Shown here: positions 1-15,380 of the stretch, one piece after another | How positions within the stretch are numbered: position 1 is the first letter of the stretch | Layout of the letters: the number at the start of each line of letters is the position of its first letter | IMG/VR virus record: IMGVR_UViG_3300035534_000060 | DNA length: 61,473 bases | Strand: one strand, 5' to 3' | Source of the DNA: a virus | The notes under the pieces: generated by a model | Told to the model about the DNA's origin: nothing | The model's database searches: none | What the model saw: only the letters and a program-made list of their open reading frames with translations | Program-made: the position numbers and the translations under genes

Positions 1-294
1 GCCAATGAAAAAGTATAGTGATGAAGATTTGATCGATATTATGGCACAGGTAGCCATAGAATTGGGAAGAACACCAAGGATGCAGGATATGCTAAATAGG
101 AAAGGTGGGCCATATCCATCACTTTAGCTACTAACAGCACTGGTTAACGTCTGGAAATTTAGAAAAGTTGCCGGACAATGCACTGAATGCGCATTTTTTG
201 ATAGTGCAAAGGGTGTGTGTATATATTACGATGATGGAGAATGTAAAGAAGATTGTGATAATTTCAAAATGTTAAAACGAGGAGGAGAAAATTA
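1..294 (+). repeat. Duplicated terminal mosaic: 1-127 copies 300-426; 128-294 is a slightly diverged copy of 61245-61411
   Basis: Direct comparison by eye; the second part differs at about 5 positions yet keeps an open frame (F->V, I->V, Y->D relative to the 61127..61411 protein). Confidence 0.85.
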
Positions 295-1949: not shown

Positions 1950-2158
1950 TGCTGCCCATTTATTCTTGCGCTATATGCGGCATCCCAGTGAAAAGTGGTA
2001 AAGTAATTGATTACTATAATAAAAATCTTGAATCTGTGAAAGGTACAGCATATGTTCACTATGATTGTATGAGTAGATTTGAAGATTATATGACCGGGAT
2101 GGGTATGATACCAGAAAATATTGCAGATTTTAACTCCATTTATAATAAGGGGGTATGA
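1949..2158 (+). CDS. Small Cys/His-containing protein
   Basis: 69-aa ORF overlapping the previous stop; CAICG...HYDC possible metal-binding pairs. Confidence 0.35.
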   Translation: MLPIYSCAICGIPVKSGKVIDYYNKNLESVKGTAYVHYDCMSRFEDYMTGMGMIPENIADFNSIYNKGV

Positions 2159-2219
2159 TTCAAACATACAACCAAAAAATATAATACACATTAAATAAAT
2201 ATTAGAGAGTGGTGAGAAT

Positions 2220-2843: not shown

Positions 2844-3065
2844 AGATGCCTGCATAGTAGGTGTATCGAATAAATAAGGAGGAATATTATGATAGGAAGA
2901 AAAATAAGAATAGTATTGGTTCACATTAGAATGGCATTACACCCAAGTTGGGTGAGTTATGGTATTGAAGATGTCGCATATATTGAAGGTTATGTAACAT
3001 TCTTGCAATGGCTGGGTTTGAGGTGATTATGTGAGGATGTGGAATATTAATCGGAGGGAGATTAA

Positions 3066-3432: not shown

Positions 3433-3639
3433 GTGTGGGAAGGTGAAGTGGAAATGAGGATGTGGAATATCAATCCAAGGTACATGTGCCGTAAGCATCT
3501 GTTGGGCGAGCATGTTGAAACACATATGCTTGTCGGCAGCCTAAGAAAAGAAAAAAGTGTGCAAGGTATCAATGAAGTGGAGGAATGGTTTGATTCGCTG
3601 GATGAAGATGAGAAGGTAGAAGTTGTTGAATATGCGTAG
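3433..3639 (+). CDS. T4 endonuclease V-like (pyrimidine-dimer DNA glycosylase family) N-terminal region, apparently truncated; ends in TAG
   Basis: MRMWNINPRYMCRKHLLGEHVE matches the MRLWSLHPKYL...LW.E N-terminal pattern of this family as recalled; only about 61 aa; one of two TAG-terminated ORFs. Confidence 0.35.
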   Translation: MWEGEVEMRMWNINPRYMCRKHLLGEHVETHMLVGSLRKEKSVQGINEVEEWFDSLDEDEKVEVVEYA

Positions 3640-3812
3640 AATATGAAACCATTTATAGAAATGATAATAAAGAAACATAAGGAGGAAATTGAATGAAAGG
3701 ACAAAAATTTTATCTGTTAAAGCAGAAGACTCCTTCCGTAAGGGAGGAGATGAATGCGTCAATGGGTGTTTAACACAATGTTTAAATAGTATTAAAACTA
3801 ATATATTTTCTG

Positions 3813-4925
3813 ATGTTAAAGGCTTACAAGTATAGAATGTATCCTGATGAAAAACAAATTGAAATGTTCCATAAACATTTTGGGGCATGTAGATACATCT
3901 ATAATTGGGCGTTGGAAAATAAAATTAAATCTTATGAACAAGAAGGCAAATCGATTTCAAGATTTGAATTAAATGGGAAAATTCGGATGTTGAAAATGGA
4001 GTTCGAATGGTTGAAAGAAATTAATTCTCAATCATTGCAAGGTGCTACTCTTAATCTGGATAATGCTTTTACCAAGTTTTTCCGTGAGAAAAAGGGTTTT
4101 CCTAAATTTAAATCAAAGAAAAATCCGGTACAATCATTTTCTGTTCCACAACATTATGAGGTGGATTTTGATGGTAACAAAGTGAAACTTCCCAAAATTG
4201 GTTGGATTAAGACAAAGTTACATAGACGTTTTGAAGGTAATTTGAAAACTGCAACAATATCAAAAACACCATCTGGTAAATATTTCATTAGTATTCTTGT
4301 AGATGACGAAAAAGATTTGCCTGCCAAACAAAAGTTTAATGAAAACAATACGGTTGGTATTGATGTGGGAATTAAGGATTTTGCCATTACTTCTAATGGT
4401 GAAAAAATAGATAATCCCAAGCATCTTAATAATTCAATAAAACGTTTGAAAGTATTGCAAAAGCGTCTCTCACGAAAACAAAAAGGTTCAAAAAACAGAG
4501 AAAAAGCAAGACAGGAGATAGCAAAACTTCATGAGAAAATCGCAAATCAGAGAAATGATTTCCAGCACAAGTTGACAAGTCGACTCATAAGCGAAAACCA
4601 AGCGATTGCACTGGAAACATTAAACATATCTGGAATGTTGAAAAATCATTGTCTTGCACAATCCATTAATGATGTATCATGGAGTTCTTTTGTAACCAAA
4701 TTGGAATATAAAGCAGAATGGTACGGAAAAACAATTCTCCGTATCGGACAGTTCGAGCCATCTACTAAAATATGCAATATCTGTGGGTATCATAACAAAA
4801 AGATTACACTTGCAGACCGTAAATGGCAATGTCCTGATTGTGGTGAAACTCATGACAGAGATGTCAATGCTGCAATTAACATTAAGAAGTTTGCCTTAAA
4901 TAAACAGAATTTGATAGGTATTTGA
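3813..4925 (+). CDS. tnpB: TnpB (OrfB) RNA-guided endonuclease-like protein
   Basis: N-terminal LKAYKYRMYPDEKQ; RuvC-like GIDVGIKD, ALETLN, HDRDVNAA; zinc finger CNICGYH...CPDCGETH. Confidence 0.85.
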   Translation: MLKAYKYRMYPDEKQIEMFHKHFGACRYIYNWALENKIKSYEQEGKSISRFELNGKIRMLKMEFEWLKEINSQSLQGATLNLDNAFTKFFREKKGFPKFKSKKNPVQSFSVPQHYEVDFDGNKVKLPKIGWIKTKLHRRFEGNLKTATISKTPSGKYFISILVDDEKDLPAKQKFNENNTVGIDVGIKDFAITSNGEKIDNPKHLNNSIKRLKVLQKRLSRKQKGSKNREKARQEIAKLHEKIANQRNDFQHKLTSRLISENQAIALETLNISGMLKNHCLAQSINDVSWSSFVTKLEYKAEWYGKTILRIGQFEPSTKICNICGYHNKKITLADRKWQCPDCGETHDRDVNAAINIKKFALNKQNLIGI

Positions 4926-5045
4926 AGCACCGTAGGAACTACGGGGAGAGCCTGTGGACTTGTTTCCGTTGGGAAAAGGAATGAAGCAGGAAGCACCATG
5001 CGTAAGCGTGGTGTAGTTCACGGGAAGGGTACAGTAGCACATGTG
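4926..5045 (+). ncRNA. Candidate TnpB guide (omega/right-end) RNA scaffold
   Basis: Locally GC-rich, hairpin-prone stretch (e.g. CCGTAGGAACTACGG) directly 3' of tnpB in an AT-rich genome; exact ends unknown. Confidence 0.3.
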
Positions 5046-5293
5046 CAAGATGCTATGTCAAGTTATGTAGTAGATGCATTCATAGATAATCCTGAAAAGG
5101 ATTGTGTAGTGACTGATATATGTAAAAGGCTGCCCATAGGCACAAAAGTTAGCATTACTGTAGAGGTACTGGAATGAATTATGACCCGAATGCTGCCGTT
5201 TGGGGATTAATTGTAGGTGCTGTATATATTGGAGTAAATGTATTTGCAGCAAAATTGGCCGAAAGGAAAAAGAATAAAGATAGGAGTGATTGA

Positions 5294-13404: not shown

Positions 13405-14133
13405 TTAAATTTTTAATTTGTCCACAGCAATCTCATATGGCACTTTAAAACTATGTGCGCTCCATGTATATTCACCATCATCACATTCAAAAACAAGGTA
13501 GCCGCAGTCATTTCCATAGGTGACTTTGCCTTTCCTCATAAATCCATCTTTCCATTTCCATGCAGGCGCAATAACACCAAGCATATCTTCCCAGCCAATG
13601 AAATGCAAATAATGTGCGTGACCCCTCAGAGCAACATCTACATTACCATATGTTTCAGGATACATCTTCATGGCCTCAAGATCGCCATTCAGACTCGTTC
13701 CACGGCCTTTCAGCGTTGAACTAGTGCCCACAGCATGCTTCAAATGGAAATCTACACCATCGACCTCAACATGTTTATCAATGTCAAATGTACCGCCGAT
13801 TAAATCCATAACATTTCTATCGGCACTACCATTTGACCCAACATGATAATCAGAACCTTGAACACCAACAAACACATCAGCATCAATCATGCGCAACATA
13901 CCCGCAGCATGCTCTATTTGCAAATCAATATCATTAGTCCAATTGCCAACTCCATCAGATTTTTTATTCTTACCATTAACTGAATCGCCAAGAACAAAAA
14001 CCACATCATAATGCTCGTTACACATATTACGCCATTGTTCCCAGAACATTTTCTGCACTTTATTTTGTCCAACAGCGCAACCATACATATTAGCCCAACT
14101 CGGCATGACAGATGCCATGCAGCCAACATGCAT
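13405..14133 (-). CDS. Calcineurin-like metallophosphoesterase (start uncertain)
   Basis: Motifs SDMHVG (read through the annotated Met), VFVLGDSVNG, RGHAHY; no canonical start between the upstream stop and the ATG. Confidence 0.55.
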   Translation of the reverse strand: MHVGCMASVMPSWANMYGCAVGQNKVQKMFWEQWRNMCNEHYDVVFVLGDSVNGKNKKSDGVGNWTNDIDLQIEHAAGMLRMIDADVFVGVQGSDYHVGSNGSADRNVMDLIGGTFDIDKHVEVDGVDFHLKHAVGTSSTLKGRGTSLNGDLEAMKMYPETYGNVDVALRGHAHYLHFIGWEDMLGVIAPAWKWKDGFMRKGKVTYGNDCGYLVFECDDGEYTWSAHSFKVPYEIAVDKLKI

Positions 14134-15000: not shown

Positions 15001-15380
15001 TGACATTAGACATAATTAAACCAAAACCAGTCGAAGAACAGAACGATTTGAGTAACGTAGATCTACCAGCAATTGTTGCAGCCGGAATTAATCAGGGCGA
15101 TATTGTAGATTTACATTCATGCGTAGAATTTGTAAATACGCAGATTGAACCTGATATTTCAGGTGATGATGTTGAAGGTACATTCAAATCAATCGTGAAA
15201 GAAGCCAAGCGTATGAGTTCAGATGCCGATAAACTTGCAAGAGAAGGTAAATCTGTTACTGAAATTGAAGCAGAACTTACCGGTAACAACTTCACGTATT
15301 CCGATATTGAAGCAATGAAAATTGAAGTTTATGGAACTGTAACTGAATGGAAGAATGCAATGACAGCAGATGAGGTATGA
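14976..15380 (+). CDS. Hypothetical protein
   Basis: 134-aa ORF. Confidence 0.4.
   Translation: MDSGWGYLMTLDIIKPKPVEEQNDLSNVDLPAIVAAGINQGDIVDLHSCVEFVNTQIEPDISGDDVEGTFKSIVKEAKRMSSDADKLAREGKSVTEIEAELTGNNFTYSDIEAMKIEVYGTVTEWKNAMTADEV

What the first reader, a model, noticed from the sequence alone, without database searches (positions are those of the whole stretch)
3813..5045. Stand-alone TnpB with a GC-rich structured 3' flank (candidate guide RNA) inside a virus genome
The 370-aa ORF has the RuvC-like D/E/D motifs and CxxC...CxxC zinc finger of TnpB, with no TnpA nearby. Immediately after the stop is a roughly 120-nt stretch that is conspicuously GC-rich and hairpin-prone relative to the AT-rich genome, which is where TnpB guide RNAs are encoded. 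A virus-borne RNA-guided nuclease could be a selfish insertion or could be used against competing elements.
Basis: partly seen in the sequence, partly recalled or inferred. Interest (0 to 1): 0.6.

Follow-up and report, generated by a model that had tools for sequence, protein, structure and literature searches.

The report
Jumping TnpB guide-RNA element in archaeal virus
A 1.3-kb mobile element that carries an RNA-guided nuclease (TnpB) and its guide RNA has recently jumped into a small gene of a tailed virus that probably infects a salt-loving methanogen, and identical copies sit at other sites in sibling viruses; this is an ordinary kind of selfish element, caught in an unusually clear and testable natural setting.

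Summary
Window 3714-5021 is a complete, tnpA-less IS200/IS605-family element:
- a 99-nt left end with a subterminal hairpin;
- tnpB (3813-4925, 370 aa; D184/E268/D350 and a CCCC zinc finger all intact);
- a 96-nt omega-RNA scaffold (4926-5021) ending in GTTCAC.

It lies directly 3' of a TTTAT motif (TAM), with no target duplication. A sibling virus (IMG/VR contig, 60,475 bp) carries the exact empty site, so the insertion splits a 58-codon viral ORF after codon 7.

The 3' flank is a real conserved RNA. It has four helices, and 17 of 24 pairs show compensatory changes. 98.8% of cells pair, against 43-59% when the partners are slid. A covariance model built from archaeal copies finds the RNA 3' of tnpB in held-out bacterial and viral relatives. 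Its layout matches the solved ISDra2 omega-RNA.

The nearest cellular copies are in Methanohalophilus (89% nt identity). Copies identical over all 1,308 nt have right-end junctions at three other TTTAT sites of this virus lineage (window 2144, 13537 and 39632, all empty here) and in an unrelated replicon. This points to a recent transposition burst that needs TnpA supplied in trans.

Most likely function: selfish retention and homing against insertion-free sibling genomes. Cleavage and RNA expression are inferred, not shown. It is a new member of a known kind, of moderate interest.

The parts
3709..3713 (+). TAM / target motif TTTAT, immediately 5' of the left end
   Evidence: Homology to cellular copies L161 and L162 starts here. 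TTTAT also precedes the element in L161, L162, L002/4, L009, L019 and L169. The empty site in L163 reads TTTAT|GGAAAGGG.
3714..3812 (+). Left end (LE), 99 nt. It contains the subterminal hairpin 3730-3737/3742-3749 (GTAA loop), 16 nt from the boundary, and the TATA-like box TTTAAATA (3781-3788), about 28 nt before the tnpB ATG.
   Evidence: The boundary comes from the empty site and from where homology between copies ends. ssDNA fold z = -2.4. A compensatory change in the hairpin is seen in L007. The TATA-like box is conserved across the family alignment; its promoter role is an inference.
3813..4925 (+). tnpB, 370 aa, an RNA-guided endonuclease of the ISDra2-like clade. Catalytic D184/E268/D350; zinc finger C321, C324, C340, C343.
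   Evidence: dN/dS is 0.14-0.20 against intact relatives (L161, L162, L009, L001, L002).
4926..5021 (+). Omega-RNA scaffold, which is also the right end (RE).
- H1: 4930-4935/4939-4944, with invariant loop GAA 4936-4938.
- H2: 4951-4955/4986-4990.
- H3: 4959-4967/4972-4979.
- H4 (also the RE subterminal DNA hairpin): 4993-5001/5006-5014, loop GTAA 5002-5005.
- Terminal GTTCAC: 5016-5021 (TEM TTCAC).
- Candidate pseudoknot: 4936-4938 with 5017-5019.
   Evidence: RNAalifold: 24 pairs, 17 of them compensatory. 98.8% of cells pair against 43-59% when slid; 0 of 500 shuffles reach the covariation score. CM R1 hit at 4913-5021: 116.4 bits, E = 4e-39, and the only strong hit in the window. MFE z = -3.9. 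The pseudoknot columns can pair in 41/41 sequences but are near-invariant.
5022..5037 (+). Predicted 16-nt guide segment (GGGAAGGGTACAGTAG). This is virus DNA abutting the RE, transcribed as the 3' tail of the omega-RNA.
   Evidence: Position follows from the ISDra2 architecture (16-nt guide after position -1; PMC10097598). Homology to the sibling virus resumes exactly at 5022. L163 has TTTAT + GGAAAGGGTACAGTAG, one mismatch at guide position 3. There is no other match in the window.
3693..3713 (+). First 7 codons (MKGQKFY) of the interrupted viral ORF, preceded by AAGGAGG at 3679-3685.
   Evidence: The intact ORF in L163 begins ATGAAAGGGCAAAAATTTTAT|GGAAAGGGT....
4998..5177 (+). Remainder of the interrupted viral ORF (5022-5177), now preceded by an in-frame ATG supplied by the RE hairpin (4998). 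It may still be translated as MRKRGVVH + GKGTVAH...
   Evidence: It is called as a 59-aa gene in the metagenome annotations. Expression is not shown.
2139..2159 (+). Empty site D: TTTAT (2139-2143) followed by the sequence that abuts the RE of identical IS copies in L173, L174 and L176.
   Evidence: The 16-nt guide of those copies matches the window 16/16.
13522..13542 (-). Empty site E: TTTAT (13542-13538 on the minus strand) followed by the sequence that abuts the RE of the identical IS copy in L175. It lies inside ORF 13405-14133(-), at codon 199 of 242.
   Evidence: There are mismatches to that guide at positions 10 and 16.
39613..39637 (-). Empty site B: TTTAT (39637-39633 on the minus strand) followed by the sequence that abuts the RE of the 98.4%-identical IS copy in L161. 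It lies just upstream of the RecU-like gene 39060-39578(-).
   Evidence: 20/20 match to the L161 flank. The site is also empty in L166 and L167.

Best explanation
Window 3714-5021 is a non-autonomous (tnpA-less) IS200/IS605-family insertion sequence of the ISDra2-like TnpB clade. It consists of a left end, tnpB and a right end that encodes the omega-RNA scaffold.

Shown:
- It inserted by the family's ssDNA 'peel-and-paste' route, directly 3' of a TTTAT motif and without target duplication, into codon 7/8 of a small gene of a roughly 61-kb tailed archaeal virus.
- Near-identical copies exist in Methanohalophilus genomes, so that genus or a close relative is the probable host and source.
- Copies identical over 1,308 nt have right-end junctions at three more TTTAT sites of this virus lineage and at one site in an unrelated replicon. 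The move is therefore recent and repeated.

Inferred mechanism:
- tnpB is transcribed from a TATA-like box in the left end, possibly as a leaderless mRNA.
- The 3' part of the transcript folds into the four-helix, pseudoknotted scaffold and runs about 16 nt into the flanking virus DNA, which becomes the guide.
- TnpB bound to this RNA cuts any DNA that has TTTAT followed by that flank. Such DNA is either the scarless donor joint left when a TnpA supplied in trans excises the element, or a co-replicating or co-infecting virus genome that lacks the insertion.
- Recombinational repair from an insertion-bearing genome then restores or copies the element (retention and homing, a gene drive in a multicopy replicon).

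No benefit to the virus is needed to explain the element.
For: - Protein family and intact active site.
- Purifying selection on tnpB, dN/dS 0.14-0.20.
- Exact ends, TAM and absence of target duplication, from the empty site in sibling virus L163.
- Cellular copies L161 and L162 are homologous only over 3709-5021/2.
- Subterminal hairpins at both ends.
- Conserved covarying RNA on the + strand, with many G-U pairs that would be C-A on the other strand.
- The model built from archaeal copies finds the RNA right after tnpB in about 70 held-out bacterial and viral loci and not in the empty-site virus.
- Point-by-point match to the ISDra2 omega-RNA (-6G, -5U, -3C, -2A; GAA partner in the stem-1 loop; tetraloop at -20 to -17; 16-nt guide).
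- Identical IS copies whose right-end junctions fall exactly 3' of a TTTAT that is present and empty in the window, at three further sites (chance about 5e-8). Their viral flanks differ by about 3% while the IS differs by 0.
- Closest cellular relatives are in Methanohalophilus.
- Virus identity and archaeal affinity.
- The retention/homing model and trans-mobilisation of tnpA-less elements are established for bacterial relatives (10.1101/2023.03.14.532601; PMC11870625).
Against: - There are no expression data for the RNA or the protein, and no cleavage assay.
- The TnpA source is unknown. None is present in the window or in any contig carrying this IS, and no sampled locus with the same end hairpins has an adjacent tnpA.
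- For sites B, D and E only the right-end junction is documented. The left flanks on those short contigs do not match the virus, probably because of assembly through a repeat.
- The only empty-site genome available for site A has one mismatch at guide position 3.
- The host assignment rests on the IS alone; the terminase has only uncultivated relatives.
- The pseudoknot has no covariation support because its columns are invariant.
Confidence: 0.85

Rival explanations
1. The element is a weapon kept by the virus: TnpB and its RNA are retained because they destroy competing viruses or other mobile elements in the same host, so the virus benefits and selection acts at the level of the virus.
For: - Guides of copies in sibling genomes match the window perfectly at its empty sites B (20/20) and D (16/16), so reciprocal cutting during co-infection is plausible.
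- tnpB is under purifying selection.
- Homing endonucleases of phages are known to give such exclusion (review PMC13565253).
Against: - At every site the guide is simply whatever lies next to the insertion; nothing is reprogrammed and there is no array.
- The insertions disrupt viral ORFs.
- The same identical element also sits in an unrelated replicon, and close copies are in host genomes.
- The sibling virus L163 does well without the element.
- Purifying selection is equally expected for a selfish element.
Confidence: 0.1
2. The element is a dead or domesticated relic: the TnpB no longer works as a nuclease (like nuclease-dead TnpB-derived regulators), or the 3' hairpins are only DNA signals for the transposase and not an RNA.
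For: - There is no tnpA in the element.
- Helix 4 is certainly also the right-end DNA hairpin.
- There are no transcript data.
Against: - The catalytic D/E/D and the zinc finger are intact, and dN/dS is about 0.15-0.2.
- Helices 1-3 lie outside the TnpA-type subterminal hairpin yet covary strongly, with strand-specific G-U pairs.
- The scaffold is conserved down to 45-55% protein identity.
- Identical copies at five or more sites show current mobility.
Confidence: 0.04
3. The insertion is an artefact: an assembly chimera or host contamination put an abundant host IS into a virus contig.
For: Short contigs in the same data sets do show implausible combinations of left and right flanks around this IS, so assemblers clearly struggle with it.
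Against: - Site A is found with 100% identical flanks on at least 7 contigs from different samples, including one of 62,043 bp.
- The insertion point is exactly 3' of TTTAT and scarless relative to an independent sibling genome, which a random chimera would not give.
Confidence: 0.01

Closest known systems
ISDra2 TnpB and its omega-RNA (reRNA) from Deinococcus radiodurans (PDB 8exa, 8bf8, 8h1j)
   Same: - Same protein architecture, aligned end to end (residues 3-362, E = 1.2e-85), with the same D/E/D and CCCC residues.
- 5-nt T-rich TAM (TTGAT there, TTTAT here).
- The RNA has four stems. Its 3' end has G at -6, U at -5, C at -3 and A at -2, and a GAA partner for a 3-bp pseudoknot in the stem-1 region.
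- Tetraloop at -20 to -17, followed by the guide.
   Different: - The protein is 370 aa, not 408; it lacks the dispensable C-terminal domain.
- As a result the whole 96-nt scaffold lies after the stop codon instead of overlapping the ORF, and it is shorter than the 116-nt ISDra2 core (short stem 3).
- ISDra2 carries tnpA; this element does not.
- The host is an archaeon or its virus. Activity is untested.
Non-autonomous tnpB-only IS200/IS605 elements (IS1341 group), and the retention/homing model shown for Geobacillus ISGst elements (Meers et al., 10.1101/2023.03.14.532601)
   Same: - Left end, tnpB and an omega-RNA-encoding right end, with no tnpA. About 75% of tnpB genes are like this.
- TAM next to the left end and a TEM at the right end.
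- Scarless donor joint made of the TAM plus the right-end flank.
- The guide is the right-end flank.
- Empty sites were identified in related genomes in exactly the way done here.
   Different: The Geobacillus elements sit in a bacterial chromosome with a demonstrated TnpA partner. Here the element sits in a virus population, the partner TnpA has not been found, and nothing has been tested experimentally.
TnpB as a gene drive in multicopy plasmids (Mears et al., PMC11870625), and the review category 'transposon non-restorative homing' against co-infecting phages or plasmids (PMC13565253)
   Same: A multicopy replicon with IS-bearing and IS-free versions in one cell, where the guide records the insertion site and targets the IS-free copies.
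   Different: That work used plasmids in bacteria in the laboratory. Here the evidence is a natural polymorphism among sibling archaeal viruses, with at least four alternative sites, and is observational only.
IS200/IS605 elements already recorded in archaeal viruses and extrachromosomal elements: ISH1.8 (tnpA + tnpB) in halovirus PhiH1 (PMC6210493), and the TnpBs of Methanoperedens viruses, Borgs and plasmids (10.1101/2023.08.02.551345). Also the sotRNAs at the tnpB 3' end in Halobacterium (PMC4615843).
   Same: A TnpB element shared between an archaeon and its viruses or extrachromosomal elements, used as a host link; and a non-coding RNA at the 3' end of archaeal tnpB.
   Different: - PhiH1's element is autonomous (it has tnpA).
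- The Methanoperedens study focused on CRISPR-adjacent TnpBs and on phylogeny.
- In the passages I read (term searches only), neither study mentions base-exact empty sites, the omega-RNA, or several sites occupied by identical copies within one virus lineage.

Membership tests
TnpB (OMEGA RNA-guided endonuclease, IS200/IS605-associated) | Full-length match to curated family models above their cut-offs | tested here: met
   NCBIfam NF038281 IS200_TnpB scores 470.7 bits (cut-off 425) over residues 3-361; NF040570 scores 362 bits (cut-off 100). All three Pfam domains are above their gathering scores.
TnpB (OMEGA RNA-guided endonuclease, IS200/IS605-associated) | RuvC catalytic triad D-E-D in canonical positions | tested here: met
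   D184, E268 and D350 align with D191, E278 and D361 of ISDra2 TnpB.
TnpB (OMEGA RNA-guided endonuclease, IS200/IS605-associated) | CCCC zinc finger (TNB domain) between RuvC-II and RuvC-III | tested here: met
   C321, C324, C340 and C343 align with the ISDra2 cysteines.
TnpB (OMEGA RNA-guided endonuclease, IS200/IS605-associated) | Structured omega-RNA encoded at the tnpB 3' end and right end, ending at the element boundary | tested here: met
   Four helices, 17/24 pairs compensatory, with controls passed. The CM generalises to held-out relatives. The RNA ends exactly at the boundary defined by the empty site.
TnpB (OMEGA RNA-guided endonuclease, IS200/IS605-associated) | Pseudoknot between the scaffold 3' end and an upstream segment (conserved from TnpB to Cas12 guide RNAs) | tested here: inconclusive
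   GAA 4936-4938 can pair with UUC 5017-5019 in 41/41 sequences, and the positions match ISDra2. The columns are near-invariant, so there is no covariation evidence.
TnpB (OMEGA RNA-guided endonuclease, IS200/IS605-associated) | TAM-dependent, RNA-guided DNA cleavage | not testable with these tools
   This needs a plasmid-interference or in vitro cleavage assay.
TnpB (OMEGA RNA-guided endonuclease, IS200/IS605-associated) | The omega-RNA is actually transcribed or processed | not testable with these tools
   No transcriptome is available. Only a conserved TATA-like box is seen in the left end.
IS200/IS605 insertion sequence | Insertion 3' of a specific 4-5-nt motif, without target-site duplication and without terminal inverted repeats | tested here: met
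   TTTAT|element|flank compared with TTTAT|flank in the sibling virus L163. TTTAT is also present at sites B, C, D and E and in cellular copies.
IS200/IS605 insertion sequence | Subterminal imperfect hairpins at both ends on the same strand | tested here: met
   LE hairpin 3730-3749, 16 nt from the end; RE hairpin 4993-5014, 7 nt from the end. Both have GTAA loops. Compensatory changes are seen between copies.
IS200/IS605 insertion sequence | Y1 (HUH) transposase TnpA in the element | tested here: not met
   No TnpA is present in the window (best E = 0.22) or in the contigs carrying this IS. 13 of 55 more distant family members have an antisense tnpA upstream. The element is therefore a non-autonomous member, as are about 75% of tnpB loci.
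IS200/IS605 insertion sequence | Evidence of mobility (several identical copies at different sites) | tested here: met
   Copies with 0 differences over 1,308 nt show right-end junctions with five different right flanks: sites A, C, D and E plus one unplaced. A copy with 21 differences has its right-end junction at site B.
Nuclease-dead TnpB derivatives (TldR-type regulators and similar) | Loss or rearrangement of RuvC catalytic residues, with loss of the transposon ends | tested here: not met
   The triad is intact and both ends are intact and in use. The element is not a member of this group.
Type V CRISPR-Cas (Cas12f and similar) | Adjacent CRISPR array and adaptation genes | tested here: not met
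   The Cas12f2 and C2c8 models score far below their cut-offs. There is no Rfam or CRISPR RNA match. The element is only 1,308 bp and has a single scaffold.

The most novel reading that the evidence does not exclude
In this virus population the TnpB/omega-RNA element acts as a gene drive between co-infecting sibling viruses. Each insertion site programs cleavage of every sibling genome that lacks that insertion, so genomes are either converted or destroyed. This, rather than repeated TnpA transposition, would explain why copies identical over 1,308 nt occupy several sites in backgrounds that differ by about 3%. The odd left-flank/right-flank combinations on short contigs would then partly be real recombinants made during repair of TnpB cuts, not assembly errors.
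Probability: 0.3. Interest if true: 0.65.

Novelty: new member of a known kind. Interest (0 to 1): 0.45.

Why it matters
TnpB elements are among the most abundant genes known. Their proposed role, biasing their own inheritance by cutting insertion-free copies, has been shown only in laboratory bacteria and plasmids.

This window offers a natural case in an archaeal virus with every component mapped to the base:
- the TAM, both element ends, the scaffold and the guide;
- the exact empty site in a sibling virus;
- three further sites that are empty here but joined to the element's right end in sibling genomes, in two cases with perfect guide matches.

That makes virus-to-virus homing directly testable. 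The element also gives a compact (370 aa, 96-nt scaffold) archaeal TnpB system with a defined TTTAT TAM, and it is the only host link for an otherwise unplaced virus group (Methanohalophilus or a close relative).

The element itself is not a new kind of system.

Tried and rejected
- Rfam: no family matched the 3' flank or anything else in the window, even at E <= 10.
- INPHARED phages: no near-identical DNA. Only weak tnpB-level DNA matches turned up, to Clostridium phage c-st and others.
- IMG/VR TnpB scan: the best match was 68% identical, so neither the window virus nor this IS subtype is in IMG/VR with the insertion.
- Metagenome scan with the neighbouring YopX-like gene: it returned only the same sibling contig plus one fragment that stops short of the site. 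Only one independent empty-site genome is therefore available for site A.
- Exact-pattern search for the unmatched left flank of L161 in viral contigs: nothing found.
- Terminase homologues: all from unnamed metagenome contigs or one unrelated MAG, giving no host information.
- Weak second CM hit at 15104-15222 (16 bits): it lacks the GTTCAC end and has no tnpB next to it, so I treated it as chance.
- Bacterial-phage reading, prompted by the RecU, YopX and strong Shine-Dalgarno motifs: not favoured, given the terminase and PolB affinities, the lack of sigma-70 enrichment and the Methanohalophilus IS copies. Not formally excluded.
- Structure prediction: skipped as unnecessary, given an E = 1e-85 end-to-end match to solved TnpB structures.
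Full report
**1. The observation**

The ORF at 3813-4925 (+) exists and encodes 370 aa.
- It carries the three Pfam domains of TnpB: HTH_OrfB_IS605, OrfB_IS605 and Cas12f1-like_TNB.
- It scores 470.7 bits on NCBIfam IS200_TnpB, above the curated cut-off of 425.
- It aligns over residues 3-362 with the solved ISDra2 TnpB (E = 1.2e-85).
- D184, E268 and D350 correspond to the catalytic D191, E278 and D361. C321, C324, C340 and C343 correspond to the zinc finger (reference residues from PMC10097598).

No tnpA is present anywhere in the window (tblastn with a family TnpA, best E = 0.22).

The stretch after the stop codon (4926-5021) has 53% G+C in a 35.8% genome, which puts it in the top 0.5% of 96-nt windows. 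It folds with z = -3.9.

**2. What the genome is**

The window encodes a large terminase, a virion protein, a helicase, a family-B DNA polymerase, a primase-like protein and a ribonucleotide reductase. Its first 58 nt equal its last 58 nt, so it looks like a complete circular assembly.

Evidence that it is a virus of archaea:
- The terminase's closest annotated relatives are two viruses assigned to Methanofastidiosa and about 50 haloarchaeal tailed viruses.
- The polymerase also points to haloarchaeal tailed viruses.
- Sigma-70-like promoters are not enriched (90 found, 95 +/- 11 expected).

I therefore treat it as a tailed virus of an archaeon. A bacterial host is not formally excluded, because some neighbouring genes (RecU-like, YopX-like) are commoner in phages of bacteria.

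**3. Element boundaries**

Of the 120 listed TnpB homologues (69-99% identical), nearly all that carry an organism name come from methanogens, mostly Methanosarcinaceae. The closest named ones are:
- 92% in Methanohalophilus sp. DAL1;
- 84-88% in M. mahii, M. euhalobius and M. sp. RSK;
- partial proteins of two further Methanohalophilus genomes, which fall in the same 90% cluster as the 99% hit.

Aligning flanks of 23 cellular copies shows that homology continues about 95 nt past the stop, to an invariant GTAGTTCAC, and then stops. On the left it starts just after a TTAT/TTAC motif. The two closest non-window copies, L161 (98.4% nt) and L162 (89% nt, between cofH-like and maf genes of Methanohalophilus sp. 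DAL1), match the window only over 3709-5021/2.

A sibling virus gives the decisive comparison. L163/L167 (IMG/VR contig of 60,475 bp) is 93-98% identical to the window on both sides. At the corresponding place it reads ATGAAAGGGCAAAAATTTTAT|GGAAAGGGTACAGTAGCACATG, and homology to the window resumes exactly at 5022.

This establishes four points:
- The element is 3714-5021 (1,308 bp).
- It lies 3' of TTTAT (3709-3713).
- There is no target duplication.
- It splits a small viral ORF (58 codons in the window once the element is removed; start ATG 3693, preceded by AAGGAGG) after codon 7.

Both ends carry subterminal hairpins with GTAA loops (3730-3749, and 4993-5014). These are the hallmarks of IS200/IS605 transposition. 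The missing tnpA makes the element non-autonomous, like about 75% of tnpB loci. In the same family, 13 of 55 more distant members carry an antisense IS200-type tnpA upstream.

**4. The 3' flank is a conserved RNA**

An alignment of the last 200 nt of 41 copies gives a consensus of four helices with 24 pairs, 17 of which keep pairing through changes on both sides.
- With the structure fixed, 98.8% of cells pair, against 43-59% when the partners are slid by 1-3 columns.
- The covariation score is 0.59 against 0.20 for shuffles (0 of 500 reach it).
- Many pairs are G-U on the + strand, which would be C-A on the other strand. The folded molecule is therefore the + strand, i.e. the transcript (or the transposed top strand, for helix 4).

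A covariance model built only from archaeal copies gives three results:
- one strong hit in the window (4913-5021, 116 bits, E = 4e-39);
- no hit in the empty-site virus;
- hits directly after tnpB in about 70 held-out bacterial and viral loci whose TnpBs are only 37-57% identical.

The layout matches the ISDra2 omega-RNA solved by cryo-EM:

| Feature | ISDra2 (PMC10097598) | Window |
|---|---|---|
| Stems | four | four |
| Scaffold 3' end | -6G, -5U, -3C, -2A | G at -6, U at -5, C at -3, A at -2 |
| Pseudoknot partner | 3 bp with GAA (-105 to -103), between the two strands of stem 1 | invariant GAA in the helix-1 loop (4936-4938) can pair with 5017-5019 |
| Tetraloop | -20 to -17 | 5002-5005, exactly -20 to -17 |
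| Core scaffold | 116 nt, overlaps the ORF | 96 nt, entirely after the stop codon |
| Protein | 408 aa | 370 aa, lacks the dispensable C-terminal domain |

The pseudoknot is compatible in 41/41 sequences but is invariant, so it stays unproven. Rfam has no matching family.

**5. Guide and target**

By analogy with ISDra2 (16-nt guide following position -1), the guide is 5022-5037, GGGAAGGGTACAGTAG. It matches nothing else in the window. It matches the empty site of the sibling virus, TTTAT + GGAAAGGGTACAGTAG, with one mismatch at position 3. This is what the retention/homing model predicts: the target is the TAM plus the right-end flank, which is the donor joint or any insertion-free copy.

**6. 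The element is active in this virus population**

The window's TnpB (from Met9) is encoded identically on 13 metagenome contigs from a series of related samples. The IS copies on the contigs retrieved are identical to the window over all 1,308 nt.

| Site | Window position | Contigs | IS differences from window | Status in window |
|---|---|---|---|---|
| A | 3713/5022 (+) | at least 7, incl. L168 (62,043 bp), L170, L171; flanks 100% identical over the 600 nt compared on each side | 0 | occupied |
| B | 39632 (-) | L161 | 21 | empty |
| C | not in this virus | L169 (10.3 kb, unrelated replicon with a Prim-Pol gene) | 0 | n/a |
| D | 2144 (+) | L173, L174, L176 | 0 | empty |
| E | 13537 (-) | L175 | 0 | empty |
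| unplaced | unknown | L172 | 0 | n/a |

At sites B, D and E the window has TTTAT immediately before the first matching base, and the site is empty. TTTAT occurs at 0.37% of positions, so three out of three by chance is about 5e-8. Site B is also empty in two other siblings.

The viral flanks at D and E differ from the window by about 3%, while the IS differs by 0. The element is therefore much younger than the split between these virus genomes. The guides implied by the copies at B and D match the window perfectly (20/20 and 16/16).

**7. What remains odd**

On the short contigs the left flank is always that of site C (94.7-100% identical between samples), whatever the right flank is. The left flank of L161 matches nothing I hold.

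The simplest reading is that assemblers cannot phase the two sides of a 1.3-kb repeat. I therefore trust only the junctions themselves. Real IS-to-IS recombinants between replicons cannot be excluded.

The TnpA that moves the element has not been found.

**8. Mechanism**

Shown:
- family membership and an intact active site;
- exact ends and the TAM;
- scarless insertion into a viral gene;
- a conserved, covarying RNA ending at the boundary;
- multiple recent insertion sites;
- close copies in Methanohalophilus.

Inferred from established work on relatives:
- transcription from a conserved TATA-like box (3781-3788, about 28 nt before the ATG);
- formation of a TnpB/omega-RNA complex;
- TAM-dependent and guide-dependent cutting of insertion-free copies;
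- repair from insertion-bearing genomes, giving retention and homing;
- mobilisation by a TnpA supplied in trans by the host.

**9. Comparison and novelty**

The element is a standard non-autonomous IS200/IS605 (IS1341-type) TnpB element of the ISDra2-like clade.
- TnpB in viruses and plasmids is recorded in the census of the family, which also notes high recent mobility in Methanosarcina (PMC10691335).
- Halovirus PhiH1 carries ISH1.8 with tnpA and tnpB.
- Methanoperedens viruses and other extrachromosomal elements share TnpBs with their host.
- RNAs at the 3' end of archaeal tnpB were described as sotRNAs.
- Homing against co-infecting phages or plasmids is already a named category in a recent review, and a plasmid gene drive has been shown experimentally.

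What is new here is the concrete natural system. It is an archaeal virus lineage with base-exact occupied and empty sites. It has right-end junctions at several alternative sites, made by identical copies, and guides that match sibling genomes.

**Verdict:** real feature, interpretation supported, a new member of a known kind, of moderate interest.

Noticed in passing
window 1-58 and 61416-61473; 127-357 and 61243-61473: The first 58 nt are identical to the last 58 nt, the usual sign of a circularly assembled, complete genome. A 231-nt segment next to the junction is also repeated at 97.8% identity.
   Followed up: partly
window 4998-5177: The right-end hairpin supplies an ATG (4998) in frame with the rest of the interrupted viral ORF. 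A 59-aa product (MRKRGVVH + original residues 8-58) could therefore still be made. Metagenome gene callers annotate it. The in-frame ATG may be chance (1 in 3).
   Followed up: partly
L172-L175 and L161 (left flanks), compared with L169: Contigs from five samples join the same type of left flank (that of site C) through the identical IS to different right flanks. The left flank of L161 matches nothing held here. These are either assembly chimeras across a repeat or real recombinants between replicons.
   Followed up: partly
window 3433-3639 compared with L163 3600-3700: A 68-aa ORF with only the N-terminal part of a pyrimidine-dimer glycosylase domain (Pyr_excise, T4 endoV-like) lies just upstream of the insertion. 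The sibling virus lacks it, so there is a second indel right next to site A.
   Followed up: no
L001 and L003 (Methanohalophilus euhalobius), about 2900-3000: In these genomes the same IS subtype sits after ATTAC inside the left end of a different family member. This is a nested insertion and shows some TAM tolerance (TTTAT, ATTAC, and TTTTT in L007).
   Followed up: no
L083-L085 (two hits each); L081 4685-4787; L082 4588-4690: Some IMG/VR loci have a second match to the omega-RNA model away from the tnpB 3' end. These may be solo right ends or gene-less PATE-like relatives.
   Followed up: no
window 39613-39637 (-), 13522-13542 (-), 2139-2159 (+): Sites A, B and E all read TTTAT|G (TTT-ATG).
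- An insertion at B would destroy the start codon of a 17-codon mini-ORF in front of the RecU-like gene.
- E lies at codon 199 of 242 in ORF 13405-14133(-).
- D lies 5 codons before the stop of ORF 1949-2158.
   Followed up: partly
L010 (Bacteroidales MAG, 78%), P0094 (Proteiniphilum MAG, 71%): Close members of this otherwise methanogen-specific TnpB group are binned in bacterial MAGs on very short contigs. This is probably a binning error, but it could be transfer.
   Followed up: no
window 15104-15222: A weak match to the omega-RNA model (16.3 bits, rough E = 0.002). It has no GTTCAC end and no adjacent tnpB, so I judged it chance.
   Followed up: yes
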